DNA from: Candidatus Roizmanbacteria bacterium RIFCSPLOWO2_01_FULL_39_19
GTDB lineage: Bacteria; Patescibacteriota; Microgenomatia; UBA1406; HO2-37-13b
Assembly (NCBI GenBank): GCA_001789725.1
Contig: MGAM01000015.1
Coordinates: forward strand, 12,470-76,469
DNA length: 64,000 bases
Reading direction: 5' to 3'
This document shows, piece after piece, positions 31,810 through 46,329 of this stretch. Position 1 is the first letter of the stretch, and every line of letters starts with the position of its first letter. The notes below the pieces were generated by a model. The model was not told the DNA's origin and did no database searches. It saw nothing but the letters and a program-made list of their open reading frames with translations. The translations under genes and the position numbers were made by a program.

Positions 31810-31811
31810 TA

Positions 31812-32405: not shown

Positions 32406-32451
32406 ATCCTCCTTGCTCTATAAAGATTTGTAAACAAATAACCTGCTTTTT

Positions 32452-33948: not shown

Positions 33949-34084
33949 TACAGATTGTTACAGTAAGTTATTCTAAATCCGGATTGACAAGAGGCTTCAA
34001 ACCTATTACCATGTCTTGTAAGGTTTAATAAAATTATTAAATTCTTTTTTCTATTACAAAAACACAAAAGGGGGTGAGTGCAAA

Positions 34085-34357
34085 ATGACAAAAGCTGATT
34101 TAGTTGCCCAAGTTGCCAAAAAAGCAAATCTTACAAACAAGGCTGCCAAAGATGCAGTGAGCGCAGTATTTGGAACAATTTCCGAGGCTCTAAAACGAGG
34201 GGAAAAAGTCGTTGTTACGGGATTTGGAACATTTTTGGTTAGAAAAAGAGCATCCAGAAAGGGACGCAATCCTCAAACCGGAGCAGAGATTCAGATTCCA
34301 GCAACGGTAACTCCGGGATTTACCGCCGGAAAATCGTTAAAGAGACTTACAAAGTAA
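34085..34357 (+). CDS. hup: DNA-binding protein HU
   Basis: MTKADLVAQVAKKANLT...GFGTFLVRKRASRKGRNPQTGAEIQIPA. Confidence 0.9.
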   Translation: MTKADLVAQVAKKANLTNKAAKDAVSAVFGTISEALKRGEKVVVTGFGTFLVRKRASRKGRNPQTGAEIQIPATVTPGFTAGKSLKRLTK

Positions 34358-34379
34358 TACTTGTTAACAAGAGACAGGC

Positions 34380-35612
34380 TCATTCCTTCTTGAATGGGTT
34401 TGTTTCGTTAAAAACGATTCCCATAAAAACCCCAACAAAAAGTATGTTCTGTTGTGAGGTGATAGAGTAGTGATCAAACAATCCTGTTAATCCGATAACC
34501 CCAAAAAATATTAAAGACTTCTTATTTTTTTTGACCAACTCATACAAACAAAACCCAACAATTCCAAAAAGCAATAATCCCCACTCAACAAGCGCCACCA
34601 AAAAAATATTATGGATTGGTTGATTAAAAAGGTACAAAGATTTTGTAGGGAGCCGAGACAAAGCATAGAGATGCTGTCCTAACCCATACCCAAATAGTGG
34701 TTTTTGAAAAAATAAAACAATCCCGTTTTGCAGTAGTAATAATCTCTCCGTAATTGACACGGTATTGTTTACCGATGTTAAAAACAATCCCCCCAATGTC
34801 CCAACACTTAAAAATCTCGCCACTTTGCAAAATCGGCACGATGATAAAGTAAAAAAAAACAAATAGAAAGATGATACAACCATCCAAGTCAAGATTGCAT
34901 TTTTAGAAAACGAGAAAAGCACAAGGAGGCTTGATAAAAATAACAAAATATACGACCAAAACGAGTAATTCTTAGCAAGTTTTAGATATTTTTGAAAAAG
35001 AACGAGAGTGTAGACCAAGACATAAAACCCTCCTAAACTATTTGGGTGAGAGAAGGTTCCATAGGGACGCAACATTTCAACCCCATTTAGCGCAGTTTTG
35101 GCAATTGCCGGAGTGCTGACTGAAAAATATCTCTCACCTAAGTAATAAAAAATCCCCTGGAGCGACGACTGAGTCTTAATTTGTGAGATTGACAAAAATA
35201 ACTCAACGAGCGCTCCAATAACAAAAGCAAAGATAACCCTTCTAAAGTTGGTTGGTGCTCTATAAAAAATAATCCCAATACAAACGATTTCTAGATATTT
35301 TGTGAATATATAGGTCCCAACCATTAACTGAGGAGACAGTATAATATTAATTACAGAGAAAGCTAAGACAATCAAAACATATTTTCTATATTTGGCCAAA
35401 ACCCCAAAAATTATCTTGATGTTTAGGATTATAAGTAAAAGGGCCAGTAAATCCGTTAAATAAAACTTTGTTGCCAAGTAATCAACCCTTATTCCGTTGA
35501 TGTAAGAAAAATCAAAGAAAAAATGTTTCCCTAGCTGAGTCGGCAGAAAAAGCACTAGCAAGAAGATAAGTAATGGTGTGAATTTTTGTCTTATAGAATT
35601 AACGTTGAGCAT
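34380..35612 (-). CDS. O-antigen ligase / Wzy_C-family polytopic membrane protein
   Basis: ~10 TM helices with a central loop (GTFSHPNSLGGFYVL). Its start codon lies 2 nt from the divergent smpB ORF start. Confidence 0.65.
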   Translation of the reverse strand: MLNVNSIRQKFTPLLIFLLVLFLPTQLGKHFFFDFSYINGIRVDYLATKFYLTDLLALLLIILNIKIIFGVLAKYRKYVLIVLAFSVINIILSPQLMVGTYIFTKYLEIVCIGIIFYRAPTNFRRVIFAFVIGALVELFLSISQIKTQSSLQGIFYYLGERYFSVSTPAIAKTALNGVEMLRPYGTFSHPNSLGGFYVLVYTLVLFQKYLKLAKNYSFWSYILLFLSSLLVLFSFSKNAILTWMVVSSFYLFFFTLSSCRFCKVARFLSVGTLGGLFLTSVNNTVSITERLLLLQNGIVLFFQKPLFGYGLGQHLYALSRLPTKSLYLFNQPIHNIFLVALVEWGLLLFGIVGFCLYELVKKNKKSLIFFGVIGLTGLFDHYSITSQQNILFVGVFMGIVFNETNPFKKE

Positions 35613-35614
35613 GA

Positions 35615-36091
35615 ATGTTTGCTACAATAATAGAAACTCTTATGAAAATTATCAATAAAAACGTTAATAGAGAATATTCTATCCTCGATAAACTCGAGGT
35701 TGGTATTGTGCTGACTGGAGCAGAGGTTAAGTCAGTTCGTGGGGGAAGAATGAGTTTGGCGGGTTCTTATGTTCGATTTATTGGAGGAGAGCCGTGTTTG
35801 GTGGGCGCCCAGATTCATGCCTACAAGTTTGATGGGAGTCCTGATTATGACGATAAACGCACCCGGCGTCTACTGTTGCATAAAAAAGAGATATTAAAAC
35901 TAAATATTAGATTATCAGAGCGCTCCAGCTTGACAATTGTGCCTCTGACCTGCTATACTAAGGGACATCGAATCAAATGTGAAATCGCGCTTGCCCAAGG
36001 CAAAAAGACCTGGGAAAAAAAGCGGGTTGAAAAAGAAACGAGTGAAAGGCGACGCGTCGAGAAAGAAATAAAAGAAAAATACAGGGGATGA
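35615..36091 (+). CDS. smpB: SsrA-binding protein SmpB
   Basis: NREYSILDKLEVGIVLTGAEVKSVR...LLLHKKEI, with a basic C-tail. An alternative start is at 35642. The stop TGA (36089-36091) lies inside the tmRNA 5' end. Confidence 0.9.
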   Translation: MFATIIETLMKIINKNVNREYSILDKLEVGIVLTGAEVKSVRGGRMSLAGSYVRFIGGEPCLVGAQIHAYKFDGSPDYDDKRTRRLLLHKKEILKLNIRLSERSSLTIVPLTCYTKGHRIKCEIALAQGKKTWEKKRVEKETSERRRVEKEIKEKYRG

Positions 36092-36503
36092 GCGGATTCG
36101 ACAGGATGATAGGTACTTTAATAAATGGCAAGGGCGCACCTATGCGTCAAATAGAAAAAAAATACTTGAGAACGACATAAACGCTCTCGCTGATCGTGTT
36201 TTGGCATTAATCGTAAGACGAAATGCTGGATACAATCGGTTTGCTTACACAGTTGCTTAACCAACAGCAACGCACAAGCACTCATTTTAGGTTTTTTACT
36301 TTTTGATTCAACCTAAATTCTGAGGTAACCAATTAAAAAGATCACAATGATCGTGCGAGTGGATTATTGTTGAAACCCTTACTCGCCCACCTATAAACGT
36401 TTGATTATTTTTGTTTATAGCTTGGTGGTAAAAATAATCTACCCCTTGCTAGAACGTTTTTTAAAGACCATTCTGGACCCGGGTTCGACTCCCGGCATCT
36501 CCA
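36084..36503 (+). ncRNA. ssrA: tmRNA (SsrA)
   Basis: The 5' end is GGGGAUGAGCGGAUUCGACAGG. The 3' end is GGACCCGGGUUCGACUCCCGGCAUCUCCA. The acceptor GGGGAUG/CAUCUCC includes G3-U. A possible tag frame ends ...AYTVA-UAA at 36258-36260; the tag is not confidently assigned. Confidence 0.85.
36430..36502 (+). repeat. attL-like copy (functional 3' end of ssrA)
   Basis: AAAAATAATCTACCCCTTGCTAGAACGTTTTTTAAAGACCATTCTGGACCCGGGTTCGACTCCCGGCATCTCC. Confidence 0.75.
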
Positions 36504-38058
36504 CAAGTTGGTTTTTAGACGATCCATGATCGTTCATTAGCCTGATAGGAAGGGACAAAGTATCGGTTCCAAACCCTTTTTCATAATCATAACTCGGTTT
36601 CTTTCCAAAGTACATATAAAGTATCGTTCTTTTTGTTTCTATATTGTCGCTTTTCCACATCTTAACAGGCTCTTTTAGGGTTGAGAAGACCTTGTTGTAG
36701 GCGGTTCCAAACTCATCCTCGGTGTAGTGTATTTGTCCAAGTGATTCTTCTAATTCAGCCTTTTCCTTCATAAGTCCTATAAGTTTATTCTCAAACAGAT
36801 TGGCTACCGATTCATCTTTTGCTTTGCCACTCCTTATGACATAGCCCTCCGCTTCTTCAGTTATCTCTATTATTCTTTTTTCTTTACTTTTATTTATCCC
36901 GGCGTCATCAGATTTGGTTTTGTCCCATACTTCACTAAATATCTCTTTCGCTAATTCAATTACGCCCGGTCCCGGCTTTATCGTACTTAGCTTGCTTTCA
37001 AATTCAGGCTCAATTTTACTCTTGCCGATTGTTTTATATCGGTAAATACAACCATCGGTTTTACACCAATAATTAGGGTATTTTTGATTCCTTCCCTTAT
37101 TCCAACTTGCCGTATATGGTTGGTCACAAGCATTACACAAAACATTAGGTCGGAGGGGAAAATCAAGATTATAGTCATTTCTTAATTTCGGAGTTGCTCT
37201 CCCGGCGAGCTTATTCTGAACCGCTTTATAGGTATCAAGGCTAATAAACCCCTCATGTTTCCCCTTTGTTAAAGGAATCTCCCATGGTTCGTACTCAATG
37301 TAACCGGTATACAACAACTCAGTCAGTATGTTTTTTGTGCCATTTAATGAAAGTGTTCGCTTAATTCCGTGTATAGCATATTGACTTAGAATGAAAAGTC
37401 GTACTTCATCTTGTGTATTAAATCTATTGCTTTCAAATCCCTCTATTGCTTCCTTATAGATTGTCGCATAGGGTTCAACATTCGTTAAAACTTTTTTGTA
37501 GATGGGATGTCCTTCGTTTTTAAGTCCGGGAGGAGGACAAAAACACCAAAACGCATCAAGTAGACGAGCTCTCATTTTTTGCATGACTTGTCGTGTGTTT
37601 TGTTTTCTAGTTAATTGACTCGCACTTGCCAGTACAAGCTCAGCAAATTCGCTCTCCGGGTTGTCTTCAAAGTTAAAGTTAAGACATTCAATCTTCGCCC
37701 CTCGTGCCATAATTTCAGCTTTCAATCTAATATGTACTGCAACGTCTCTTGCAAAGCGTGATAGATCATCAAAGATAACAACGTATGATTTATATGGGTG
37801 AGCGTCAAGGTAGGCAAGAAGCTCCTTCATTGCAGGTCTTTCAAATAAACCACCTGATACTCCTTCGTCAGGAAAAACTTTTTCAATGGGATAGTTTTTA
37901 TCTTTTGAGTAATTTATACATCTTTGTTCTTGTGAGTCTAAACCATGCCCCTCTTTAACCTGCTTAGGTGATGAAACCCTACAATAGATTAACGCATGAA
38001 GGATTTCATTTGGTTGTTTTTGATTTTCCTTTTGTTTCTTCATGGATTGTCTTTTCAC
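36439..38058 (-). CDS. Large serine recombinase
   Basis: ALIYCRVSSPKQVKEGHGLDSQ is a resolvase catalytic domain. A recombinase domain and a Cys-containing zinc-ribbon region follow (CNACDQ...CKTDGC). The last ~21 codons are antisense to the tmRNA 3' end. Confidence 0.85.
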   Translation of the reverse strand: MKRQSMKKQKENQKQPNEILHALIYCRVSSPKQVKEGHGLDSQEQRCINYSKDKNYPIEKVFPDEGVSGGLFERPAMKELLAYLDAHPYKSYVVIFDDLSRFARDVAVHIRLKAEIMARGAKIECLNFNFEDNPESEFAELVLASASQLTRKQNTRQVMQKMRARLLDAFWCFCPPPGLKNEGHPIYKKVLTNVEPYATIYKEAIEGFESNRFNTQDEVRLFILSQYAIHGIKRTLSLNGTKNILTELLYTGYIEYEPWEIPLTKGKHEGFISLDTYKAVQNKLAGRATPKLRNDYNLDFPLRPNVLCNACDQPYTASWNKGRNQKYPNYWCKTDGCIYRYKTIGKSKIEPEFESKLSTIKPGPGVIELAKEIFSEVWDKTKSDDAGINKSKEKRIIEITEEAEGYVIRSGKAKDESVANLFENKLIGLMKEKAELEESLGQIHYTEDEFGTAYNKVFSTLKEPVKMWKSDNIETKRTILYMYFGKKPSYDYEKGFGTDTLSLPIRLMNDHGSSKNQLVEMPGVEPGSRMVFKKRSSKG

Positions 38059-38158
38059 ACAAATTATAAAGCAGAATCATTATATCCTCTACTTGTTTGT
38101 CGGTTAATTGTGAATACTTTTCTCCTAATTTTTCTCTTGCCTTCTGAAGGGACAGCAT
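38006..38158 (-). CDS. Possible small helical protein (50 aa) overlapping the recombinase start
   Basis: My translation is MLSLQKAREKLGEKYSQLTDKQVEDIMILLYNLCEKTIHEETKGKSKTTK. It is below the ORF-track cutoff and has no other support. Confidence 0.25.
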   Translation of the reverse strand: MLSLQKAREKLGEKYSQLTDKQVEDIMILLYNLCEKTIHEETKGKSKTTK

Positions 38159-38493
38159 TTTCGTAATTGCTTCTTTCCTTCAGCTTCAAAAAAAGCCTCA
38201 GGAAAAACTTCAGAAAGCTATAATCCATTGCCATTATTTGTTAGACAACTTAGCGTTCCGTGTTTCCCAAGGCCTCCCTCGGTGATCAGTAGTCAAAAAA
38301 CTACCTTTTCCGGCATATCGTTTGGTTCAGGAGATAGTTATCCTGCTAATTGTTACTATAAGAATAGTAAATTGTAGTCTTTAGGTCAATCCATAAGAAC
38401 TATATCAAAAAGGGTCAAAGCCGTTCTTATATTGCAACATTCTTTAACAGCGGACAGGGTGATACGTCTAACCTCTCATAAAATCATCCATAT

Positions 38494-38874
38494 TTAACAG
38501 TTCGCATTGTACAAACCAACGATTTTATGTATCTCTTGTATGTAGTGAAGTCGTGCCGTGTAATCTACCATTCCATTGCTTGTGACGGCGTCAAGTCCCT
38601 CGGTTAATCGTCGCTCTACTTTAGAATTATTTCCAACCAAACCAACCTTTTTGAGTTCATGTTGCAATGCTTTTACAATGTTAGGTTTTGAAAGGTATTC
38701 AGACGCCATTGAGCGAGCTGTAGCATCGGTTTTAACGTCATACACCCTCTTTATACATTCTTTCGGCTTGATCGGTTTTCCCATGCGTATAGCGGTCACT
38801 AAATGAGCAATAAAGAGTTGTTGTCTTAATGTAAGACCAAAAGGATTATGCTTGTTAATTGCAATGTAGGGCAT
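38494..38874 (-). CDS. Terminase small-subunit-like HTH protein (tentative)
   Basis: LTLRQQLFIAHLV...KECIKRVYDVKTDATARSMASEYLSKPNIVKAL resembles the Terminase_2 N-terminal pattern (LT.kQ..F...Y......A...aGY....a...a..ll..p.v...i). Confidence 0.4.
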   Translation of the reverse strand: MPYIAINKHNPFGLTLRQQLFIAHLVTAIRMGKPIKPKECIKRVYDVKTDATARSMASEYLSKPNIVKALQHELKKVGLVGNNSKVERRLTEGLDAVTSNGMVDYTARLHYIQEIHKIVGLYNANC

Positions 38875-38970
38875 AGCATATTATATCAAGCAAGAATTAT
38901 TTTCTAAAAAATTATTGTGCGATTTGATTAGGTGTCTTACCACTAGTTTTTGTGACCCAAACCCATCGTC

Positions 38971-39498
38971 ATGCCACCCCCCGACATCATAGAAAAATCC
39001 TATCATTTGTGCTACAATACAGCTTGTATGGATAGTCCAAACAGTAAAGCGATTGATATTATTTCAACGTATTTCATAGAGATAATACAAATAGTCATTC
39101 TCCTTGGATTTATTCTTCTTAAATTCGCTCAGGTAATTGATCAGCAAACACTTCTCGTTGTTTCCCTATTTGTAATAGGCTCAATTTCGGTAAGATTCTT
39201 AGCAACAACATATCTTAATTATGTTATCACAATAAGGAATACGGCATATTTCCAAGACAATAGAACCGCAAACTTTTTGACGTTTGATGCTTTGAAGTTT
39301 GTTTTGATACTTGTTAGTTTAATATCAATAATTGTTTTAGGGTTAAACAATGTTTTGAACAATGAAACAATAGCCACGTTATTGGGAGGCTTGATTGGAT
39401 CACTCTTAACTATGAGAGGTAGCTATTCAGATTTGAAACCATTATCAAAGAAAGAAATGGAGGAGTTAAACCCCACATCCCAAACACCACAACCTTAA
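38971..39498 (+). CDS. Hypothetical membrane protein (4 TM helices)
   Basis: The hydrophobic segments are clear. The true start may be the internal MDSPNSK. Confidence 0.5.
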   Translation: MPPPDIIEKSYHLCYNTACMDSPNSKAIDIISTYFIEIIQIVILLGFILLKFAQVIDQQTLLVVSLFVIGSISVRFLATTYLNYVITIRNTAYFQDNRTANFLTFDALKFVLILVSLISIIVLGLNNVLNNETIATLLGGLIGSLLTMRGSYSDLKPLSKKEMEELNPTSQTPQP

Positions 39499-39538
39499 TA
39501 CCGCCAACACACAGAAACCTTCTTATTTAAGACAAGTA

Positions 39539-40237
39539 TTAGTTATTCCCCACAACTCCATAGCGTACATTTGTTTTTCCATCCTCAATGGTTATGTTTG
39601 CAATCCAAATCTTACCTAACTCATCGGTTTTTTTAACATGAACACCACCATCGGGCATAGAAGGGTAGTCTCCTATCTTGATCATCCGCAAAGGCTTATT
39701 TCGTGGTAAATTTGGTGGTAAGAATTGACAATCTCTTTCTAGCTCCTCGTACGTTGCTTCTTTTGTGACAACTTCAAGCCCGGATTGTGCAATTTTATTG
39801 ACCTCGGTTTCAATTTGTTCCTTCAAAGAAACATCAAGTTCTCCTTCATATTCAAGGAAGGCTTTTTTACCATGACCTCCTCTTATGGGTTTAAGGTCTT
39901 TGACGATCGTCATTAAAACATCATGTAAAAGATGACCGGCAGTATGAATTTGCATATACTTATATCGCCAATTCCAATCAATAGTGCCTTTAACGGCGTC
40001 ACCTTTCTTCAGGTCTCCTTTAACTTGATGGATGATTTCACCATCCGATACTCTCACATATTCAACATGAGCGGTTCCCAAAGTTCCTCTATCAGATGGT
40101 TGCCCACCACCCTCGGGGTAAAAAATAGTTTGATCTAAAACAACGTTTAGTAGGCTCCCGGCTTGTTCGGCACTAACAACAGTACAATCAAGCTCGGTCT
40201 GATAAGGGTCTTGGTAATATATTTGTTTAGTATTCAT
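39539..40237 (-). CDS. AlaX-type alanyl-tRNA editing (trans-editing) domain protein
   Basis: VLDQTIFYPEGGGQPSDRG, IDWNWRYKYMQIHTAGHLLH (HxxxH zinc motif), and a C-terminal DGGVHV where the family normally has CGGxHV. Confidence 0.75.
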   Translation of the reverse strand: MNTKQIYYQDPYQTELDCTVVSAEQAGSLLNVVLDQTIFYPEGGGQPSDRGTLGTAHVEYVRVSDGEIIHQVKGDLKKGDAVKGTIDWNWRYKYMQIHTAGHLLHDVLMTIVKDLKPIRGGHGKKAFLEYEGELDVSLKEQIETEVNKIAQSGLEVVTKEATYEELERDCQFLPPNLPRNKPLRMIKIGDYPSMPDGGVHVKKTDELGKIWIANITIEDGKTNVRYGVVGNN

Positions 40238-40248
40238 AGGATTTTTAA

Positions 40249-40668
40249 TTATCTAAGGGATGGTAAACTCCCTGTAACTTTAGTAACAGATTTCTTGTCT
40301 CCATAGATCGCAATCGCATCTATGTCTAAATCATTGTAATTGGTCTCCGCGACCGATTTTTTGTATTCTTCATACGACCTCATTCCTTGTGCACGAGTCA
40401 GAAATACTATAATTTTGCACCCTAACTCCTCACCTCTTTTGCAAAGTTCAAGAAATGATATATTTGGCTTAGCAGTCAATATGGGAATAGGAATTTGTGT
40501 AAACCCCAAAAGTTCAATCCCATCTTTTGTAACTAAATTCTGACCGGGTAAGCTTGGAATATGCATCGCAAGACCGGTTGCAAGAACTGCCGCTCTATTT
40601 GCAGCTAACCCTATTCCTAAAGTTGAACTGACAACTATAACGACCTTTAATTCTTCATGTTCTTCCAT
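40249..40668 (-). CDS. DUF2000 family protein
   Basis: KVVIVVSSTLGIGLAANRAAVLATGLA...TKDGIELLGFTQIPIPIL...IVFLTRAQ...YGDKKSVTKVTGSLPSLR matches the DUF2000 pattern as I remember it. It lies 11 nt upstream of alaX. Confidence 0.65.
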   Translation of the reverse strand: MEEHEELKVVIVVSSTLGIGLAANRAAVLATGLAMHIPSLPGQNLVTKDGIELLGFTQIPIPILTAKPNISFLELCKRGEELGCKIIVFLTRAQGMRSYEEYKKSVAETNYNDLDIDAIAIYGDKKSVTKVTGSLPSLR

Positions 40669-40700
40669 ATTTCAATTATTATAACTAATAAATTTGTGAT

Positions 40701-40732
40701 TGGGCAAAGCGGGGAGGAATCATCCTCCCCGC
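40701..40732 (-). terminator. Strong 10-bp GC-rich hairpin after the 95-aa ORF
   Basis: GCGGGGAGGA (40709-40718), loop ATCA, TCCTCCCCGC (40723-40732). On the minus strand it is followed by UUUGCCC. Confidence 0.5.
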
Positions 40733-40749
40733 ATGGTATCAATGCCACA

Positions 40750-41037
40750 CTAGCCACTCCGAGGTGAAAAATGGGCAACACATGGTTCACATGATGTGCG
40801 GTGTTGATAAAGACCTTGTCTTGCCTCTTGAACTTCTAACATTGGAATAAGCTCTTCAGCCGGGTAGTCGGTTCTTCCTTCCCAAACCTCCGGTGCGTGT
40901 TCTTGCGAATAATTAACACGAATTGTCCCTCCTCCTATTCTTTCCAAAGCTGAAAGCTGTCGTTGTAAGCCTTGATAGGTTGGACACCAATGACTATCTC
41001 TTTCAACACCTCCTTTTCCTGATAATGCTTCTGACAT
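40750..41037 (-). CDS. Small (95 aa) Cys-containing hypothetical protein, GC-richer than its surroundings
   Basis: A strong SD (AAAGGGGGTGA) lies 6 nt upstream of the ATG. Terminator hairpins flank it on both sides. I recognise no family. Confidence 0.55.
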   Translation of the reverse strand: MSEALSGKGGVERDSHWCPTYQGLQRQLSALERIGGGTIRVNYSQEHAPEVWEGRTDYPAEELIPMLEVQEARQGLYQHRTSCEPCVAHFSPRSG

Positions 41038-41080
41038 AATTTCTCACCCCCTTTCATGTTTTAATTTATATTTGGCATAC

Positions 41081-41139
41081 TAAAAACCCGCCGGGTGGCG
41101 GGTCTTGTTGGCAAAAAAAATCCCCGCCTATTTGCGGGG
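41081..41139 (-). terminator. Two tandem intrinsic terminators (minus strand)
   Basis: T1 is ACCCGCC-GGGT-GGCGGGT (41086-41103) followed on the minus strand by UUUUU. T2 is CCCCGC-CTATTT-GCGGGG (41122-41139) followed by AUUUUUUUU. Confidence 0.7.
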
Positions 41140-41406
41140 TATGTGTTTTCTAATGCAATACATTAGTCACCCCGCGTAAGCAGGGTAAAAAAGTTATTGA
41201 TTCCTTTTATGTAGCCTTGTGTCAACATAATTCAATTATACCATGAAATGCTTCAAAAGCAAAACATCATGTTCAAACACTCCTATGTGATATTGGCATA
41301 CTATCTTCAGGCAAGTTCAGATTCAGATGATTGAGCACCGGATACCATTTCCAAACATACTCTTCTATTTGGTTCCAATTTTCAGCAAACTTGTCCACCG
41401 AAGAAT

Positions 41407-41934
41407 TCAAACATATTGGAGTAATTGTGGTATTTCTTTTATACCAAACGTATCAGTAAAGTGTCCGGCCCCCTTAATTAAAACACTTTTCCCTCCTAGC
41501 CTTTTACTCATCTGCTCATTAATAAAATAAGTACAATACGGATCATTATCAGAGCTTATACAATAAATCTCTGAAACATTTTTCTTAATTTTTTCATGAT
41601 CCAGAGCATTTGGCCAAAACAGCCGATGTTCTTTTGTTAAATCATTAAAATCCCAACCCGATATTAAAAACATTTTCTTAAACAAATATTTTTCAGCCAG
41701 TCTCATTGCTAGTAAACAGCCAATGCTGTGGCCAAAGATAATCATATTCCTATTAATAGTTAATAAATTCTTAATAAAATCCAACTGTTTCTTCATGTCA
41801 GGTAAGTCCGTATCCATAGTTGGAAGTTCGGGAAGATAAACTTGATATCTTCGTTTTTCAAGCTCTTGTTTTAACCACGAATACCAATTGTTTTCTGGCT
41901 TTTCATACCAAGCATGTAAAATGAGCGCTTTCAT
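41407..41934 (-). CDS. YdeN/RBBP9-type alpha/beta serine hydrolase
   Basis: ILHAWYEKPENNWYSWL... and the nucleophile elbow IIFGHSIGC; 175 aa. Confidence 0.65.
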   Translation of the reverse strand: MKALILHAWYEKPENNWYSWLKQELEKRRYQVYLPELPTMDTDLPDMKKQLDFIKNLLTINRNMIIFGHSIGCLLAMRLAEKYLFKKMFLISGWDFNDLTKEHRLFWPNALDHEKIKKNVSEIYCISSDNDPYCTYFINEQMSKRLGGKSVLIKGAGHFTDTFGIKEIPQLLQYV

Positions 41935-42029
41935 AAATGTATTATATCAAGCAAACAAAAACGATAAACGCGTTGATGTTTGACAGGACTTATATCCTGT
42001 GGTAAAGTATAAGTACCATACGCGTACCT

Positions 42030-43049
42030 ATGTATCAGCCATTTTTTGAAATCTCACCTAGAATAAGCAGTGCTCTGGAAGCAATTGGACAGATTCTTGG
42101 ATTTTTAAAAGCCACTCGTATCCCTAAAGCCTACGAAAAAGAATATCTAACAAAAGTAATTATAGATACTATAAATTCTTCAACTGCTATTGAAGGTAAC
42201 ACTCTTACTCCTTCTCAAATAAGAAAAGTTGTTAAGGGTAAAAAAATTATTGCTATGCAAAAGGATATCCAAGAAGTTAAAAATTATCATCGAGCCGTTA
42301 AGGAACTAATAAAAATTACGAAAACCAAAGACGATATATCTGAAAAAATAATTCTTAACTTACATAAAATTATTACCAACAAGCTTGATATTAATCGATC
42401 AGGTCAATATCGAAAACAGATGGTTATTGTTGGTGATTATTTATCTCCCAAACCTAATGAAGTTCTAAGACTAATGAAGGAGTTTGTCAAATGGATTAAT
42501 AAACCCACTCCAACAGACTTATCGCCACTTCTTTATGCTGGTATAGTTCATTATCGTTTTGTTGCCATTCATCCTTTTGCTGACGGTAATGGTCGAACGG
42601 CAAGGATTTTAACCAAATTAATTCTGATGAAATTTGGTTATAACATTACTAAGTTATTCTCTCTTGAAACTTATTATAATCGTGACAGAAAAGCTTATTA
42701 TCAAGCATTATCAACCATAGATAAATATCGTATTGACAGAAAAGAAAATTTAACGCTTTGGCTCGAATATTTTATTGAAGGAATGCTTGTTGAGGCAGAA
42801 AGAGCAAGGTCTAAAATAATTGAACTCCAGTCAAAAAGTAAACAGGTACCGATATTATTAACTAATAGCCAACAAAAAGCTTTAGTTTGGTTTACAAAAA
42901 ATAAAATTCTGCGAATGCAAGATTATATTAAAATATCAGGACTAAGCCGTAAAGGTGCATATAAAAGCCTAAATGTATTAGTTAAATTAAGGCAAATTAT
43001 CAAGGTCGGGGTGGGAAAACAAACCTATTACGTCTTGCTTGAAAAATAA
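42030..43049 (+). CDS. Fic family protein (AMPylase-type) with an N-terminal inhibitory motif and a C-terminal wHTH
   Basis: Active site HPFADGNGRTARIL. Upstream (S/T)xxxE(G/N)-type motif STAIEGN. C-terminal DNA-binding-like domain. The stop codon falls within the attR repeat. Confidence 0.85.
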   Translation: MYQPFFEISPRISSALEAIGQILGFLKATRIPKAYEKEYLTKVIIDTINSSTAIEGNTLTPSQIRKVVKGKKIIAMQKDIQEVKNYHRAVKELIKITKTKDDISEKIILNLHKIITNKLDINRSGQYRKQMVIVGDYLSPKPNEVLRLMKEFVKWINKPTPTDLSPLLYAGIVHYRFVAIHPFADGNGRTARILTKLILMKFGYNITKLFSLETYYNRDRKAYYQALSTIDKYRIDRKENLTLWLEYFIEGMLVEAERARSKIIELQSKSKQVPILLTNSQQKALVWFTKNKILRMQDYIKISGLSRKGAYKSLNVLVKLRQIIKVGVGKQTYYVLLEK

Positions 43050-43114
43050 TCTACCCCCCGCTACAACATTTTTTAAAGACCATTCTGGACCCGGGTTCGA
43101 CTCCCAACATCTCT
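43042..43114 (+). repeat. attR-like copy (degenerate tmRNA 3' fragment)
   Basis: AAAAATAATCTACCCCCCGCTACAACATTTTTTAAAGACCATTCTGGACCCGGGTTCGACTCCCAACATCTCT. It shares a 37-nt identical core with the first copy, has ~7 mismatches, and its T-stem is broken. Confidence 0.75.
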
Positions 43115-43120
43115 GCCAAA

Positions 43121-43822
43121 TTAGAATTGCATCTTAATAGGCAAATCTCTTGTTCCGTTGGGAAACATTCTTTTACCCATACGATGAACTCTATCGTATA
43201 CTTGTGACGAAGGTCTATAACTATCTCCTGCCTCAAAAAGGACTTGTGTCGAAGCTGACACAGCCCTCATGTTCATTTCTCTCATAACAGCAATTGCTTT
43301 TTGCTGTGTTTGTATATCTTGCCAAGAGATCCGTTCAATATCTCTCATCTGAGTTGCCCCCCCTGCCAAATGAGCCACAGCTTCAACAGGATGAGCCTGA
43401 GCATGTAAGAAAAATTGGATGGGAATTATGAAATAGGTTCTGTCATCATGAAGAGACCGAGTACTTATAATGCCCTCGGGTACAAAATGAGGAGGTCGAA
43501 TGACCGGAAGTCTCGTTATTTGAGCGGTTGTTGATAGCAGATCATTATTAAGCACCGTAACAACGGGGTGAGGACCAGGTTCTAACAAGCGCCATGCTTG
43601 AGTGCCAGTTTGACGGAGGAATGGACTTAATGCCCTATTAGCCAACCATCCTAAACCTGCATGGATATAGTCAATAAACACTCCAATATTTTGAGTGGCA
43701 AGCTGTTGTTGAAAAAATATAGCATTGCCTAAATATTGGGCATATCGAGCATTAATCAGATCAAATGCATGGGAAACGCCATCATCAGATGGTAAGTATT
43801 CCTCGGCTGTCTCTATAGTCAT
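43121..43822 (-). CDS. Hypothetical protein (233 aa), GC-richer, immediately outside attR
   Basis: Clean ORF. A TATAAT lies 8 nt upstream of the ATG. I recognise no motif. Confidence 0.5.
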   Translation of the reverse strand: MTIETAEEYLPSDDGVSHAFDLINARYAQYLGNAIFFQQQLATQNIGVFIDYIHAGLGWLANRALSPFLRQTGTQAWRLLEPGPHPVVTVLNNDLLSTTAQITRLPVIRPPHFVPEGIISTRSLHDDRTYFIIPIQFFLHAQAHPVEAVAHLAGGATQMRDIERISWQDIQTQQKAIAVMREMNMRAVSASTQVLFEAGDSYRPSSQVYDRVHRMGKRMFPNGTRDLPIKMQF

Positions 43823-43833
43823 TTGGGGATATT

Positions 43834-43864
43834 ATAGCATAGAGACAATCTATGCTATTTTTTT
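43834..43864. terminator. Perfect 10-bp inverted repeat followed by a T-run
   Basis: ATAGCATAGA-gacaa-TCTATGCTAT then TTTTTT, in terminator form on the + strand. It sits between the yidD stop and the start of the 233-aa ORF (both minus strand). The 3' arm contains the TATAAT of that ORF. Confidence 0.35.
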
Positions 43865-43865
43865 A

Positions 43866-44102
43866 CTAAACAAGATCGTGTCCTCCCTTTGAAAAAGGAT
43901 TACATCTTACAATCCTCCAGACACCAAGACTACTCCCCTTAATTACCCCGTATTTTCTAACAGCCTGCTCAAAATATTTAGAACAAGTTGGGTGAAATTT
44001 ACAATCTCCACCAAAAAGTAAAAAATGACTTCCCACGAGCAATCTTAATGGTTGGTTTTTCTGATACCATTTGATTAAAGAAACAAGCGGTTTTTTTATC
44101 AT
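43866..44102 (-). CDS. yidD: Membrane protein insertion efficiency factor YidD
   Basis: LIKWYQK...CKFHPTCSKYFEQAVRKYGVIKGSSLGVWRIVRCNPFSKGGHD. Confidence 0.9.
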   Translation of the reverse strand: MIKKPLVSLIKWYQKNQPLRLLVGSHFLLFGGDCKFHPTCSKYFEQAVRKYGVIKGSSLGVWRIVRCNPFSKGGHDLV

Positions 44103-44129
44103 TGTGTCAAACTAAAGTATAATACAAGC

Positions 44130-44897
44130 ATGAAAATAACAATAATTTCTCTCTTTCCTGAGATGATACGGGGTTTTTTAAACGAAAGTATTATCAAACG
44201 TGCCCAAGAAAAAGGCAAGGTCACAATAAAAACTATTAACTTAAGAGATTTTGGGGAGGGGGCATATAAACAAGTTGATGACAGGCCCTATGGAGGAGGA
44301 GCGGGGATGATCCTTATGGTTTCGCCTTTGGCAAAAGCCATAAAGAAATCAAAAATTAAAAATCAAAAAATAAAAATTAAGAAAAAAATTATTCTTACCT
44401 CTCCCAGAGGAAAGAAATATTCACAAGAGGTTGCTCAAGAATTTTCTAAACTTGATGATTTGACCATTATATGCGGACACTATGAAGGGATTGACGAGAG
44501 AGTCGTGGATTATGTTGATGAGGAGATATCGTTGGGGGATTTTGTTATGACTGGAGGAGAAATAGCAGCTTGTGCAATTATTGATTCTGTTGTTCGACTG
44601 ATCCCGGGAGTTTTAAAGAAGACAGAGGCAACAGCCGAGGAAAGTTTTTTTGATGTTTCGACTGAAGAGCTTCTTAAGTTAATTCCCGACGACGGGGATC
44701 TTTTAAATCTTTTTAAAAAAAATATTAAGAAGGTAAAACTCATTGAATACTCTCACTACACCCGCCCTGTCGACTTTGGGGGAGATAAGGTTCCCGAAGT
44801 ATTGTTATCGGGAGATCATAAAGAAATTCAGAATTGGCGGATAAAACAGGCTTTTTTATTAACCAAGAAACGCCGCCCCGACCTCTTGCGCAAGTGA
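44130..44897 (+). CDS. trmD: tRNA (guanine37-N1)-methyltransferase
   Basis: IISLFPEM...VDDRPYGGGAGM...CGHYEGIDERV...SLGDFVMTGGE, with a Lys-rich insertion (KKSKIKNQKIKIKKK). Confidence 0.9.
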   Translation: MKITIISLFPEMIRGFLNESIIKRAQEKGKVTIKTINLRDFGEGAYKQVDDRPYGGGAGMILMVSPLAKAIKKSKIKNQKIKIKKKIILTSPRGKKYSQEVAQEFSKLDDLTIICGHYEGIDERVVDYVDEEISLGDFVMTGGEIAACAIIDSVVRLIPGVLKKTEATAEESFFDVSTEELLKLIPDDGDLLNLFKKNIKKVKLIEYSHYTRPVDFGGDKVPEVLLSGDHKEIQNWRIKQAFLLTKKRRPDLLRK

Positions 44898-44921
44898 GAT
44901 GTGTCATGTATATTTCATCAC

Positions 44922-45608
44922 ATGGTAAATTTTCAAAAAGTCTCCAAAAAATTTGGAACTACAACTGCTGTCTCTGACTTAACTTTTTCAATAAAAGAGG
45001 GAGAAATCGTCGGACTTCTTGGGTTAAATGGGGCCGGCAAAACTACAACAATGAGGCTTATTGTTGGCGCTCTGTCTCCAAATGAGGGAGTCGTGAGAGT
45101 AAATAATTACGATCCAATTGCAAACCATCTTAACACAGCATCTTTAATTGGGTATCTTCCTGAGAATAACCCACTATACCTTGATATGTTAGTTAAGGAA
45201 TATTTAAAGTTTGTAAGCGCGGTTAAGGAAAAAACAAGCGATGATTATTTTACTGACATTATCAGGCAAACAGGTTTAATAGGATATCTAAACAAAAAAA
45301 TAGAAACATTATCTCGTGGATACAAACAACGAGTTGGGCTTGCAACAGCTTTGCTTGGCGACCCAAAGATAATTATCCTTGACGAGCCAACATCGGGCCT
45401 TGACCCAATTGAACAAGAAAAGATCAAAGACTTAATAGTTAATCTTGGCAAAAATAAAACAATAATATTTTCAACACATATCTTATCTGAAGTTGAAGAT
45501 ATTGCAACCCGACTCTTAATCCTTAATAAAGGAATCATTGTTTATGATGGAGAGAATCCGAGAAAGTTAGGATCGGTTGAAGTTTTATTTAAAAAATATG
45601 TTTCTTAA
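44922..45608 (+). CDS. ABC transporter ATP-binding protein
   Basis: GLNGAGKTTT, LSRGYKQRV, IIILDEPTSGLD. Confidence 0.85.
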   Translation: MVNFQKVSKKFGTTTAVSDLTFSIKEGEIVGLLGLNGAGKTTTMRLIVGALSPNEGVVRVNNYDPIANHLNTASLIGYLPENNPLYLDMLVKEYLKFVSAVKEKTSDDYFTDIIRQTGLIGYLNKKIETLSRGYKQRVGLATALLGDPKIIILDEPTSGLDPIEQEKIKDLIVNLGKNKTIIFSTHILSEVEDIATRLLILNKGIIVYDGENPRKLGSVEVLFKKYVS

Positions 45609-46329
45609 ATTAAGAAAAAACATTATCTTGTCTTTAACAAAAAAAGAGCTAGGTTATTATTTTAACAACCCATTTGGATATATTGCCGCAACTCTTTTTG
45701 GAATATTTGCATCTTTTGTGTTTGTTAAAGACATATTTTTAGTAGGGGACGGATCGATGAGGCAATTTTTTGAAATTCTAGTCTGGTTACTATTGATTTT
45801 TGTCCCTACCGTTGCTATGAGACTTTTCAGTGAAGAGAAGCGTTTAAAAACACTTGAGTTGCTGTTGTCTTTTCCGGTAACTATTGAAGAGATTGTTTTA
45901 GCAAAATTTTTGTCACTAATTGTTTTTTGTTTTATTGCCGTTACCCTAACGTTCTCAATTCCCGTCTCATTATTTTTTATATCCAGTCCTCCTGTATCGA
46001 CAATTATTGTTAGCTATTTAGGAGTTTTTATGTTTATTGGATTTCTTGGTTCCGTATCATTATTTTTCTCAAGCAGGACAACAAGCCAAATTGTAGCCTT
46101 ATTGTCTTCTGTTCTTGTATCATTCGTATTTTTAGTATTTGGAAGCGATTTTTTTGGTTCATTTTTACCCCTTTCTCTTAAAAACATACTGGTTTTTATG
46201 TCTCCCTTAAACTATTTGGACTTTTTTTATAAAGGGATCATTGACTTAAGATCGGTTATCTTTTTCTTGACATTTATTTTAGTTTTTTTAGTTTCTAGCT
46301 ATTTGTCAATTAGGAAAAATAGATCATGA
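45598..46329 (+). CDS. ABC-2 type permease (GldF-like)
   Basis: Six-TM permease, overlapping the ATPase stop. Confidence 0.65.
   Translation: MFLKLRKNIILSLTKKELGYYFNNPFGYIAATLFGIFASFVFVKDIFLVGDGSMRQFFEILVWLLLIFVPTVAMRLFSEEKRLKTLELLLSFPVTIEEIVLAKFLSLIVFCFIAVTLTFSIPVSLFFISSPPVSTIIVSYLGVFMFIGFLGSVSLFFSSRTTSQIVALLSSVLVSFVFLVFGSDFFGSFLPLSLKNILVFMSPLNYLDFFYKGIIDLRSVIFFLTFILVFLVSSYLSIRKNRS

What the first reader, a model, noticed from the sequence alone, without database searches (positions are those of the whole stretch)
36430..43114. ~6.7-kb island inserted in the tmRNA gene; its serine recombinase ORF reads antisense through the ssrA 3' end
Seen in the sequence:
- The last 73 nt of ssrA (36430-36502) recur at 43042-43114, with a 37-nt identical core and about 7 mismatches.
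- The distal copy has a broken T-stem (CCCAAC instead of CCCGGC). It therefore looks like the displaced or decayed half-site.
- Between the copies lie a 539-aa large serine recombinase, a 126-aa TerS-like HTH protein, and cargo genes of mixed composition.
- The recombinase ORF crosses attL. Its last ~21 codons (...VEMPGVEPGSRMVFKKRSSKG) are antisense to the tmRNA T-arm and acceptor.
- An equivalent tail (...LGVEPGSRMVFKKCCSGG) is encoded at the distal copy. The enzyme would therefore keep a near-identical C-terminus whether integrated or excised.

Established knowledge: tRNA/tmRNA 3' ends are classical island targets, mostly for tyrosine integrases. An integrase plus a TerS-like gene without capsid genes is the layout of phage satellites.

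Inference: this is a satellite-like or decayed prophage element in a CPR-type host that uses a serine recombinase at ssrA.
Basis: partly seen in the sequence, partly recalled or inferred. Interest (0 to 1): 0.7.

Follow-up and report, generated by a model that had tools for sequence, protein, structure and literature searches.

The report
Self-splitting serine integrase island at tmRNA
A 4.9-kb mobile island sits at the very last bases of the tmRNA gene of a Roizmanbacteria (CPR) genome, and its serine integrase gene is cut by its own integration, so the enzyme has a different C-terminal tail on the chromosome than on the excised circle.

Summary
The raw observations hold. ssrA is at 36084-36504, its last 72 nt recur at 43042-43113, and a 539-aa large serine recombinase (LSR) ORF reads antisense through the tmRNA 3' end.

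The island limits and the "same tail either way" inference are wrong. Two contigs from the same aquifer population join window 36504 directly to 41399. The mobile unit is therefore 36505-41398 (4,894 bp), flanked by TCCAC. The serine hydrolase, Fic gene and degenerate tmRNA copy remain in the empty site, so they are an older remnant.

Joining the element's ends gives the LSR a different 40-residue end (...LV|DKFAENWNQIEEYVWKWYPVL...). The same split occurs in at least 21 other genomes (more with a refined profile). All four homologues carrying the intact tail lie on small contigs that assemble as circles and lack tmRNA. Of the 120 nearest homologues, 114 end in tmRNA-antisense sequence. More distant relatives target tRNA 3' ends.

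The layout was noted in 2011 for Dehalococcoides ssrA islands (DsiB). I rate this a new variant of a known kind. New here are the conserved reconstituted tail, the 5-nt crossover core and the size of the clade. The function of the tail swap is inferred only.

The parts
35615..36091 (+). smpB, directly upstream of ssrA (host gene, context)
   Evidence: Pfam SmpB in the called gene. Cluster named SsrA-binding protein, Ca. Roizmanbacteria.
36084..36504 (+). ssrA (tmRNA gene). Its last 5 nt, TCCAC, are the crossover core.
   Evidence: ARAGORN. Rfam RF00023, 96 bits, E 5.6e-37.
36500..36504 (+). attL core TCCAC (U70-C71-C72-A73-C74 of the tmRNA acceptor end)
   Evidence: 5-nt overlap of the two alignment blocks of empty-site contig L009. 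The same GTGGA core is found at both junctions in the 21 delimited elements in other genomes (19 with exact GTGGA at both ends).
36505..41398 (.). The mobile element itself (4,894 bp)
   Evidence: Absent from L009 (ERZ27254845) and L015 (ERZ28563641), whose flanks are 99.95-100% identical to the window. Present in L007, L008, L012, L014, L017-L019 and, in part, L021-L024.
36439..38058 (-). Large serine recombinase gene, integrated form (539 aa from GTG; 534 aa from ATG at 38043). The last 21 codons are tmRNA antisense.
   Evidence: Pfam Resolvase and PHROG_95. Four invariant zinc-ribbon Cys. A homologue's AF2 model matches full-length SPbeta, Bxb1 and phiC31 integrases.
38006..38158 (-). Conserved ~50-aa ORF directly upstream of, and overlapping, the LSR start. 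Candidate partner or directionality factor.
   Evidence: Homologues sit in the same position in at least 13 other elements, including circular contigs L001 and L002. No Pfam or PHROG hit.
38494..38874 (-). 126-aa ORF, possibly a DNA-binding protein. Specific to this element.
   Evidence: Only a weak PHROG_51 hit (1.3e-4) and no Pfam hit. No homologue in related elements.
38971..39498 (+). 175-aa hydrophobic ORF (cargo, function unknown)
   Evidence: ORF list. No family hits.
39539..40237 (-). AlaX-like tRNA-editing domain protein (cargo)
   Evidence: Pfam tRNA-synt_2c C-terminal part (3.6e-11) and tRNA_SAD.
40249..40668 (-). DUF2000 protein (cargo)
   Evidence: Pfam PF09391, 2.4e-28.
40750..41037 (-). 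95-aa ORF (cargo, function unknown)
   Evidence: ORF list. No family hits.
41273..41398 (-). Detached 3' end of the LSR gene. It encodes VDKFAENWNQIEEYVWKWYPVLNHLNLNLPEDSMPISHRSV* and is joined to the gene body only in the excised circle.
   Evidence: Conceptual circle junction. Tail HMM E 3.4e-22. Homologous detached tails in 21+ genomes and intact tails on 4 circular contigs.
41394..41398 (+). attR core TCCAC
41407..41934 (-). Serine hydrolase gene. Part of an older remnant, not of the mobile unit.
   Evidence: Pfam Ser_hydrolase 1e-15. Present in empty-site contig L009.
42030..43049 (+). Fic/DOC protein with a C-terminal winged-helix-like region. Older remnant.
   Evidence: Pfam Fic 1.5e-20. 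Present in L009.
43042..43113 (+). Degenerate copy of the last 72 nt of ssrA (broken T-stem). Relic boundary of an older event.
   Evidence: Alignment. 37-nt core. Rfam sees only the T-loop, 10.5 bits. Present in the empty site.

Best explanation
**What it is (shown).** Window 36505-41398 is a 4.9-kb integrative element of a Ca. Roizmanbacteria population. A large serine recombinase (LSR) inserted it at TCCAC, the last five encoded bases of the tmRNA gene. The mature tmRNA sequence is left intact apart from the position corresponding to the second C of the CCA tail (attB ...CTCCACCG; attL ...CTCCACAA).

**The split gene (shown).**
- The element's attP lies inside the LSR's own ORF, about 41 codons before the stop.
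- On the circle, the gene would encode a 559-aa enzyme ending in a conserved tail, VDxxxxxWNQIExY[IV][FW][KR]WYPxL.
- Integration separates that tail (now at 41273-41398, next to attR) from the gene body.
- The chromosomal gene instead runs on into the antisense of the tmRNA acceptor and T-arm (VEMPGVEPGS...) until a chance stop.
- This is the standard architecture of a very large clade. Of the 120 nearest homologues, 114 end in tmRNA-antisense sequence. More distant members do the same at tRNA-Ala and other tRNA 3' ends.

**The rest of the flagged region (shown).** The serine hydrolase and Fic genes and the degenerate 72-nt tmRNA copy downstream are an older remnant of a separate event.

**Mechanism (inferred, about 0.35).** The tail swap makes the enzyme's form depend on the element's topology. 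The full-length enzyme from the circle would drive attP x attB. The tail-less chromosomal form would be attenuated or altered in directionality, perhaps acting with the conserved ~50-aa upstream ORF. This would stabilise integration while still allowing excision.

**Crossover position (inferred).** The central dinucleotide is probably CC (C71-C72). The evidence is the TGT-GG-ACA dyad in attP.
For: **Empty sites.** L009 equals window 30637-36504 joined to 41394-48705 with a 5-nt TCCAC overlap. L015, from another sample, reads ...CTCCACCGAAGAATTC. Contig L010 breaks exactly at 36504.

**Reconstituted ORF.**

**Family evidence.**
- At least 1186 homologues. Of the 120 nearest, 114 have a VE[M..] tmRNA-antisense end, 4 have the free-form tail and 2 are tRNA-type.
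- tmRNA overlaps the LSR 3' end in about 30 GTDB loci by ARAGORN. Rfam finds it in 8 of 8 loci that ARAGORN missed.
- The detached tail lies on the same strand, 3.3-10.3 kb upstream of the LSR, with a GTGGA core at both junctions, in 21 genomes. A refined HMM adds 7 more.
- All 4 free-form proteins are on contigs of 4.2-10.8 kb with terminal overlaps of 26, 55, 127 and 127 nt and no tmRNA.

**Selection on the tail.**
- All 25 detached tails stay open for at least 28 codons. Random 27-codon windows from the same loci are open 34% of the time.
- In codons 11-22, pairwise identity is 0.56 at codon positions 1+2 and 0.40 at position 3, with many synonymous codons.
- GTG is used 28/28 times, GAC 26/26 and AAC 23/24, which shows an att-site constraint at the DNA level.

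**LSR identity.**
Against: - No circular junction of this particular element was found. The attP 28-mer has 0 hits in JGI metagenome contigs. The reconstituted 554-aa protein is not in the 15-billion-protein collection.
- The empty sites could be never-occupied lineages rather than excision products.
- The AF2 model gives the tail low confidence (pLDDT 55-69), so no structural role can be read from it.
- Part of the tail's conservation (WNQ = TGGAACCA) is clearly at the DNA level and may reflect attP recognition rather than protein function.
- No recombination directionality factor has been identified.
- The functional effect of the swap is wholly untested.
Confidence: 0.8

Rival explanations
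1. One reading: one 6.7-kb island (36430-43114) is bounded by the two tmRNA 3'-end copies. The distal copy is the displaced native end, and the recombinase keeps the same tail in both states.
For: The 72-nt repeat is real and is the classical signature of a tDNA island. The antisense frame of the distal copy does translate to ...LGVEPGSRMVFKKCCSGG.
Against: - Empty-site contigs retain 41399-43114, including the distal copy.
- The true attR is at 41394-41398 and carries the conserved LSR tail.
- No tail-HMM hit lies near 43.1 kb.
- The family's junction core is 5 nt, not a long tDNA duplication.
Confidence: 0.03
2. The anatomy is as described, but the tail has no protein function. attP simply overlaps the 3' end of the gene for compactness. 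The apparent tail conservation is the DNA sequence of the P arm, and both enzyme forms are equivalent.
For: Codon choice at V, D and N9 is fixed at the DNA level, and TGGAACCA is nearly invariant including third positions. McMurdie et al. 2011 thought a coding role for the ssrA-antisense part unlikely (PMC3146451). The crossover falls in a low-confidence linker after the last folded domain.
Against: - Conservation extends to codon 22, which is 66 nt from the crossover.
- That conservation is at the amino-acid level, with synonymous codon variation: Y TAT/TAC; P CCT/CCG/CCA; L six codons; R five codons.
- All 25 detached tails are open for at least 28 codons.
- Several tails share a terminal [ILV][SP]Hxx[IVL] motif.
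Confidence: 0.3
3. The elements are primarily small plasmids (autonomous circles) that integrate only occasionally. The window copy is a dead-end integrated plasmid.
For: Four relatives assemble as circles of 4.2-10.8 kb with the intact gene. None of this family is in IMG/VR.
Against: - No replication initiator, partition or relaxase family is detected in 113 cargo ORFs from 23 elements.
- 114 of the 120 nearest homologues are in the integrated state.
- The window element is polymorphic within an otherwise near-identical population.
Confidence: 0.12
4. The element is a phage satellite or decayed prophage that depends on a helper phage for packaging through a TerS-like protein.
For: Weak PHROG_51 (terminase small subunit) hit of the 126-aa ORF, E 1.3e-4.
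Against: - No Pfam support.
- The ORF is not conserved in any related element.
- No capsid, portal, terminase or primase families occur in the family's cargo, which is dominated by restriction-modification, toxin-antitoxin and abortive-infection-type genes.
- No close relative in IMG/VR.
Confidence: 0.05

Closest known systems
Dehalococcoides ssrA-specific genomic islands with serine recombinase DsiB (McMurdie et al. 2011, BMC Genomics 12:287, PMC3146451)
   Same: - A ~540-aa serine recombinase lies next to attL and converges on ssrA.
- The ORF always overlaps attL, with its stop codon only inside ssrA or the next island.
- Islands can occur in tandem.
- No transfer genes are present (IME-like).
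- The authors already speculated that dsiB may be fully functional only on the circular element.
   Different: - Different host phylum.
- A 5-nt TCCAC core at the extreme 3' end, rather than a 20-bp direct repeat with an inferred crossover in the T-loop.
- No DsiA, RecF, ParB or Mom module in the window element.
- A conserved reconstituted tail, and circular contigs carrying it, are shown here. For DsiB the C-terminus was left unresolved.
- Sequence homology between DsiB and this clade was not tested.
Phage large serine integrases (SPbeta SprA, Bxb1, phiC31, Listeria A118/LI)
   Same: - Same domain order: catalytic domain, recombinase domain, zinc ribbon with coiled coil.
- Full-length structural match, E 1e-18 to 1e-13.
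- Short att sites and a very short identity at the crossover.
   Different: - In the textbook cases I know of, attP is not described as interrupting the integrase ORF, and the target is a protein gene or intergenic site (from my own knowledge, not checked here).
- Here attP is inside the enzyme's own ORF and the target is a tmRNA or tRNA 3' end.
- There is an extra helical region after the coiled coil (residues ~438-500 of P0003), followed by a linker and the detachable tail.
- No known RDF.
SSV1-type archaeal integrases (attP within the int gene, so the gene is partitioned on integration; reviewed in PMC8371274)
   Same: Integration splits the integrase gene, and the intact gene exists only on the circle. 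The target is a tRNA gene.
   Different: Those are tyrosine recombinases, in archaea. Their split removes a substantial part of the gene, whereas here only a ~40-residue tail is exchanged and the chromosomal ORF stays long.
Integration-dependent immunity of mycobacteriophages (attP inside the repressor gene; cited from my own knowledge, Broussard et al. 2013)
   Same: Integration changes the C-terminus of a phage protein and so couples protein form to integration state.
   Different: The protein altered there is the repressor, not the recombinase. The integrase is a tyrosine recombinase, and the mechanism is removal of a degradation tag. None of this was tested here.
Classical tDNA islands (Islander-type; Hudson et al. 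2015, PMC4383910)
   Same: Integration is at a tmRNA gene with the gene preserved. The older remnant at 41399-43113 carries the classical displaced-fragment signature.
   Different: The active element uses a serine rather than a tyrosine recombinase and carries no tDNA fragment. That paper states that serine integrases were not known to target tDNAs.

Membership tests
Large serine recombinase (serine integrase) | N-terminal resolvase-type catalytic domain with the serine nucleophile | tested here: met
   Pfam PF00239, 2.9e-21, residues 22-164. The YCRVSS motif is conserved. PDB profile hit to the TP901-1 integrase catalytic domain, 9e-20.
Large serine recombinase (serine integrase) | Recombinase domain followed by a zinc ribbon with an inserted coiled coil | tested here: met
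   The window protein has no Pfam hit for PF07508 or PF13408 at E<=0.01, but homologues carry them. Four invariant Cys (C308, C311, C332, C337). AF2 model has long helices 357-430 and a full-length Foldseek match to SPbeta, Bxb1 and phiC31 integrases.
Large serine recombinase (serine integrase) | Short att sites with minimal identity at the crossover, and a precise conservative junction | tested here: met
   5-nt TCCAC shared by attL, attR and the empty site. The same core occurs in 21 other elements.
Large serine recombinase (serine integrase) | Catalysis of attP x attB, and RDF-dependent attL x attR | not testable with these tools
   Needs recombination assays.
Dehalococcoides-type ssrA-GI (DsiB) | ~540-aa serine recombinase adjacent to attL whose ORF overlaps the ssrA 3' end | tested here: met
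   Description of dsiB in PMC3146451.
Dehalococcoides-type ssrA-GI (DsiB) | [quoted passage not shown] | tested here: not met
   The far boundary shares only TCCAC, and the crossover is at the acceptor end.
Dehalococcoides-type ssrA-GI (DsiB) | Syntenic integration module (DsiA small serine recombinase, RecF-like, ParB-like, Mom-like) | tested here: not met
   No such Pfam families in 36505-41398. A small Resolvase ORF does precede the LSR in relative L005.
Dehalococcoides-type ssrA-GI (DsiB) | Sequence homology of the recombinase to DsiB | not tested
   No DsiB sequence could be retrieved with the tools available.
Classical tDNA genomic island (tyrosine integrase) | Tyrosine integrase gene on the island | tested here: not met
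   No phage-integrase family hit among the ORFs of 36.4-43.8 kb.
Classical tDNA genomic island (tyrosine integrase) | A displaced tDNA 3' fragment marks the far end of the mobile unit | tested here: not met
   The fragment exists (43042-43113) but stays in the empty site. It may mark an older event.
Phage satellite | Integrase plus packaging-hijack genes (TerS or capsid-redirecting), with helper dependence | tested here: inconclusive
   Only a weak TerS-like hit, 1.3e-4. It is not conserved in the family. No structural or packaging families in 113 cargo ORFs. No close relative in IMG/VR.
Split-integrase elements (SSV1 type) | attP inside the integrase ORF, so that integration partitions the gene | tested here: met
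   This is an analogy only, because the SSV1 enzyme is a tyrosine recombinase.

The most novel reading that the evidence does not exclude
The C-terminal tail exchange is a built-in, topology-encoded directionality or dosage switch for a large serine integrase. Only the circle encodes the full-length, integration-competent enzyme. The chromosome encodes a tail-less form that is either silent or biased towards excision, possibly with the conserved ~50-aa upstream protein, and without a classical RDF. Because the target is the near-universal UCCAC end shared by tmRNA and tRNA-Ala, the clade could also provide broad-host integration tools.
Probability: 0.3. Interest if true: 0.8.

Novelty: new variant of a known kind. 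Interest (0 to 1): 0.62.

Why it matters
- **Target class.** Serine integrases are usually regarded as not using tRNA or tmRNA genes (Islander paper). Here a clade of more than a thousand members does exactly that, at the last five bases of the gene and without carrying a tDNA fragment. Island finders that look for tDNA duplications or tyrosine integrases will therefore miss these elements.
- **Directionality.** The integrase rewrites its own C-terminus on integration. This is a natural experiment on how large serine integrases control directionality, and it can be tested with two constructs differing only in the tail.
- **CPR biology.** The elements appear to be a main vehicle for defence and toxin-antitoxin cargo in CPR bacteria, whose mobile elements are poorly known.
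- **Testability.** Related enzymes occur in cultured Alphaproteobacteria at tRNA genes, so experiments are feasible.

Tried and rejected
- **attP junction search.** An exact search for the predicted junction (CAGCAAACTTGTCCACAAGTTGGTTTTT) in JGI metagenome contigs gave 0 hits. This searched assemblies only, not reads.
- **Reconstituted protein.** The exact 554-aa sequence is not in the protein collection.
- **Older remnant.** I searched metagenomes for relatives of the downstream trmD to find an ancestral site without the hydrolase/Fic remnant. The best hit has 61% identity and none of the 80 loci has a tmRNA nearby, so there is no synteny. The origin of the distal tmRNA copy stays unresolved.
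- **Tail-profile homologue search.** A profile of reconstituted C-termini returned only 21 short fragments and no further free-form proteins.
- **IMG/VR scan.** The best relative has 33% identity and sits at a tRNA-like end next to a tyrosine integrase. There is no evidence of a viral lifestyle.
- **AF2 model of a free-form homologue.** The body is confident (pLDDT 88) but the tail is not (55-69), so no docking site can be proposed.
- **PDB sequence search.** It matched only the catalytic domain.
- **Inovirus reading.** Considered because of element size and a paper linking CPR, inoviruses and serine recombinases. Rejected because no Zot/pI-like family occurs in the cargo.
- **Contig L011.** It diverges inside ssrA, but it folds back on itself through a long inverted repeat and looks like an assembly artefact.

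Full report
**1. Checking the observation**

ARAGORN and Rfam both place a standard one-piece tmRNA gene at 36084-36504(+). smpB ends just inside its 5' end.

The last 72 nt of ssrA (36430-36501) align without gaps to 43042-43113, with 6 mismatches. The 37-nt identical core occurs exactly twice in the window. None was seen in 100 shuffles, even allowing 3 mismatches. The distal copy reads CCCAAC where the gene has CCCGGC, which breaks two T-stem pairs. Rfam recognises only its T-loop (10.5 bits).

ORF 36439-38058(-) is 539 aa, or 534 aa from the ATG that gene callers use. It has a resolvase catalytic domain (Pfam 2.9e-21) and matches the PHROG serine-integrase family over nearly its full length (3e-51). 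Its last 21 codons (VEMPGVEPGSRMVFKKRSSKG) are the reverse complement of the tmRNA acceptor 3' strand, T-arm and preceding helix.

**2. The island limits are different**

I looked up contigs that encode exactly the window's SmpB and the 233-aa protein downstream of the region. This returned many contigs of the same population from Rifle-aquifer metagenomes. The organism is Ca. Roizmanbacteria bacterium RIFCSPHIGHO2_01_FULL_39_12b or a near-identical strain.

Most of these contigs carry the region as in the window. Contig L009 (13 kb, sample ERZ27254845) does not.
- Its first block equals window 30637-36504 (3 mismatches in 5,868 nt).
- Its second block equals 41394-48705 (0 mismatches in 7,312 nt).
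- The two blocks overlap by 5 nt, TCCAC.

Contig L015, from another sample, also reads ...CATCTCCAC|CGAAGAATTC, which is the same empty junction. A third contig, L010, breaks exactly at 36504.

The unit that is present or absent is therefore 36505-41398 (4,894 bp), flanked by TCCAC at 36500-36504 and 41394-41398. The serine hydrolase gene (41407-41934), the Fic gene (42030-43049) and the degenerate tmRNA copy all remain in the empty site. They are not part of the mobile unit.

The distal copy is best read as the scar of an older, separate event with the classical tDNA-duplication signature. I could not date or type that event, because relatives found through trmD share no synteny with ssrA.

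**3. The recombinase gene is split by integration**

Joining 41398 to 36505, as excision would, extends the LSR ORF across the junction. It then reads ...SSKNQLV|DKFAENWNQIEEYVWKWYPVLNHLNLNLPEDSMPISHRSV*, for a total of 559 aa.

Among the 120 nearest homologues (about 45-55% identity, 495-555 aa; the only closer hit is a 100%-identical copy), the C-termini fall into three groups:
- 114 end in ...V-E-[M/V/T..]-x-G-x-E-P-x-S..., which is the antisense of CATCTCCAC plus a T-arm;
- 4 end in a tail homologous to the reconstituted one (for example P0038, ...LVDILSNNWNLLTNYIYRWYPVLTKL...);
- 2 end in tRNA-type antisense sequence.

All four free-form proteins lie on contigs of 4.2-10.8 kb whose ends overlap exactly (26, 55, 127 and 127 nt). 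These are assembled circles, and none carries a tmRNA gene.

**4. The architecture is general**

A scan of one genome per GTDB species returned 515 relatives, of which the best 80 were kept.
- In the CPR members, the LSR converges on a tmRNA gene and overlaps its 3' end. ARAGORN finds this in about 30 loci. Rfam confirms tmRNA at the expected place in 8 of 8 loci that ARAGORN had missed.
- A small HMM built from five tails finds a detached tail on the same strand as the LSR and 3.3-10.3 kb upstream of it in 21 genomes. A refined HMM adds seven more.
- Every significant hit has the predicted position and orientation.
- At both junctions the shared sequence is GTGGA in LSR sense, which is TCCAC in tmRNA sense.

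TCCAC corresponds to U70-C71-C72-A73-C74. That acceptor end is common to tmRNA and tRNA-Ala, and Saccharibacteria and Gracilibacteria members of the clade do sit at tRNA-Ala. At 38-44% identity the clade continues into Alphaproteobacteria and other groups, at tRNA-Ala, Leu, Tyr, Met, Arg, Thr and Ser, again with the ORF reading into the tRNA antisense. I did not find their far ends within 10 kb.

**5. Is the tail a protein or just attP DNA? Both**

DNA-level constraint, typical of an att site:
- Codon 1 is GTG in 28 of 28 sequences.
- Codon 2 is GAC in 26 of 26.
- Asn-9 is AAC in 23 of 24, whereas Asn-6 is AAT in 8 of 8.
- TGGAACCA is nearly invariant, including third positions (third-position identity 0.74).

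Protein-level constraint:
- Codons 11-22 lie 31-66 nt from the crossover. They keep their amino acids (Y, I/V, F/W, K/R, W, Y, P, L) while using many synonymous codons.
- Pairwise identity there is 0.56 at positions 1+2 and 0.40 at position 3.
- All 25 detached tails remain open for at least 28 codons. Random windows from the same loci are open 34% of the time.
- Several tails end in a shared [ILV][SP]Hxx[IVL] motif.

A gene piece kept intact kilobases from its body implies that the elements regularly return to the circular state and that the full-length protein matters.

attP shows an inner dyad, TGT-GG-ACA. Positions 1, 2 and 3 from the centre are complementary in 100%, 92% and 67% of 24 sites, whereas attB lacks this symmetry. 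This suggests a GG/CC central dinucleotide, which is an inference. On the flank side of attB there is no conservation across genomes. Recognition therefore seems to rest mainly on the tmRNA half-site. That would also allow tandem insertions, and doubled tail fragments are seen in L035, L048 and L081.

**6. What kind of enzyme and element**

An AF2 model of free-form homologue P0003 has mean pLDDT 88. It shows a catalytic domain, a long helix E, a recombinase domain, a zinc ribbon, a two-helix coiled coil (357-430) and an extra helical region (438-500). After that comes a low-confidence linker (501-516, containing the crossover) and two short low-confidence helices that form the tail. Foldseek aligns the whole chain to the SPbeta, Bxb1 and phiC31 integrases (E 1e-18 to 1e-13). 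The enzyme is a bona fide large serine integrase.

Across 24 delimited elements, the only universal gene is the LSR. A ~50-aa ORF directly upstream of it (window 38006-38158) recurs in at least 13 elements, including circles. It is a candidate partner.

The 126-aa 'TerS-like' ORF is unique to this element and only weakly TerS-like.

Cargo in the family includes restriction-modification genes, Vsr, HNH, a SocA/Panacea antitoxin, a KAP NTPase, a reverse transcriptase, AbiV, Fic, TIR and trypsin-like proteases. No capsid, terminase, replication or relaxase families were detected. IMG/VR holds no close relative. These are small integrative islands carrying mainly defence-type cargo, not recognisable phages or satellites. 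The window copy carries an AlaX-like editing protein, a DUF2000 protein and three unknown ORFs.

**7. Mechanism**

Shown:
- insertion at TCCAC;
- preservation of the tmRNA (attB ...CTCCACCG, attL ...CTCCACAA; only the position of the second C of CCA changes);
- a split LSR gene;
- a conserved tail encoded only by the circle;
- presence/absence polymorphism in the population.

Inferred:
- The circle expresses the full-length enzyme, which carries out attP x attB.
- Once integrated, the element can make only a tail-less enzyme with a host-dictated extension. Among homologues this extension is 8-74 residues after the Val, median 15, and is otherwise unconserved.
- The tail sits behind a flexible linker, so its loss should not unfold the enzyme but could change activity, directionality or stability.
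- Convergent transcription with the highly expressed ssrA could further damp chromosomal expression. This is speculation.

I put about 0.35 on a real regulatory consequence and about 0.3 on the null view that the two forms are equivalent.

**8. Comparison with what is known**

The Islander paper states that serine integrases were not known to target tDNAs. However, McMurdie et al. 2011 described Dehalococcoides ssrA islands with a 540-aa serine recombinase, DsiB. [quoted passage not shown] They also suggested it might be fully functional only on the circle.

That is the same kind of system, so the phenomenon is not categorically new. What differs here:
- the phylum, and the size of the clade;
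- the 5-nt core at the acceptor end, instead of a 20-bp repeat with an inferred T-loop crossover;
- the lack of the DsiA/RecF/ParB/Mom module;
- direct evidence for a conserved reconstituted tail, plus circular contigs that carry it.

One Paracoccus phage with a serine recombinase at tRNA-Met has also been reported. SSV1-type archaeal integrases are the analogue for gene partition, but they are tyrosine recombinases. I found no paper on serine recombinases of Patescibacteria.

**9. Verdict**

The sequence observations are real. The proposed boundaries, the 'same tail' inference and the satellite reading are not supported.

What is there is a 4.9-kb, recently mobile, LSR-borne island at the tmRNA acceptor end. 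Its integrase gene is cut by integration. Next to it lies an older remnant that supplied the misleading repeat. I rate it a new variant of a known kind, of moderate to high interest.

Noticed in passing
L062-L106 (e.g. L070 Cereibacter azotoformans KA25 10001-11563; L087 Stappia indica; L076 Nitrosomonas marina Nm22): More distant members of the same LSR clade (38-41% identity), found in Alphaproteobacteria and other groups including cultured strains, also read antisense into tRNA-Ala, Leu, Tyr, Met, Arg, Thr or Ser 3' ends. Their far ends and tails were not located within 10 kb.
   Followed up: partly
window 38006-38158 (-): A ~50-aa ORF overlapping the LSR start is conserved in the same position in at least 13 related elements, including circular contigs (consensus ITIxxARxKLGEKxxxMTDKQIExxLxxLYxLCxKxID). 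It has no family hit and may be a directionality factor or regulator.
   Followed up: partly
Reconstituted tails, alignment A3 columns 114-119 (window 41276-41293, - strand): Many tails end in a shared terminal motif [ILV][SP]Hxx[IVL] (ISHRSV, ISHTGI, LSHDNV, IPHISI, VPHIGL, YSHTSI, ISHIGV; LSHEEI in P0003). It could be a degron or a docking peptide.
   Followed up: no
L035 (tails at ~6300-6530 and 7399-7554), L048 (4931-5017 and 5709-5867), L081 (4092-4235 and 5014-5208): Two tail fragments lie upstream of a single LSR. This suggests tandem insertions, or remnants of earlier elements at the same tmRNA or tRNA site.
   Followed up: no
L044, attR around 4681-4788: The detached tail begins VEMPGVDLNQ..., so its first 17 nt still match tmRNA antisense. 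This points to a shifted crossover or a gene-conversion event in this element.
   Followed up: no
window 39539-40237 (-): The island inserted at the alanine-accepting tmRNA carries an AlaX-like trans-editing domain protein, a family that deacylates mischarged tRNA-Ala. This may be coincidence, but it is a curious match of cargo to target.
   Followed up: no
window ~25615-28512 (= L007 1-2898): VirB4/TrbE-like ATPase, TraC-like and PrgI-like genes, that is, components of a type IV secretion or conjugation-like apparatus, lie about 8 kb upstream of ssrA. They could bear on how such islands move between cells.
   Followed up: no
L011 4419-4811 (diverges from the window at 36169, inside ssrA): The contig leaves the tmRNA sequence and returns to its reverse complement through a ~45-nt inverted repeat around a ~330-nt AT-rich insert. 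It looks like a fold-back assembly artefact.
   Followed up: partly
L045 9440-9554 (-): A LOOT RNA motif (Rfam RF03000, 66 bits) lies inside a related element, just upstream of its LSR gene. No such match occurs in the window element.
   Followed up: no
L201 3916-4006: A 4.2-kb circular relative carries a tRNA-Ser(UGA) gene as cargo.
   Followed up: no
window 36439-38043 (-): The 534-aa LSR protein is recorded only from JGI and ENA assemblies. Its neighbours SmpB (OGK15255) and TrmD (OGK15244) are in the GenBank MAG. The recombinase may have been dropped from, or marked as a pseudogene in, that annotation, perhaps because it overlaps ssrA.
   Followed up: no
L005 6458-6829: In one relative (GCA_964412815.1) a 123-aa resolvase-domain ORF directly precedes the LSR. 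This resembles the DsiA/DsiB and CcrA/CcrB pairs.
   Followed up: no
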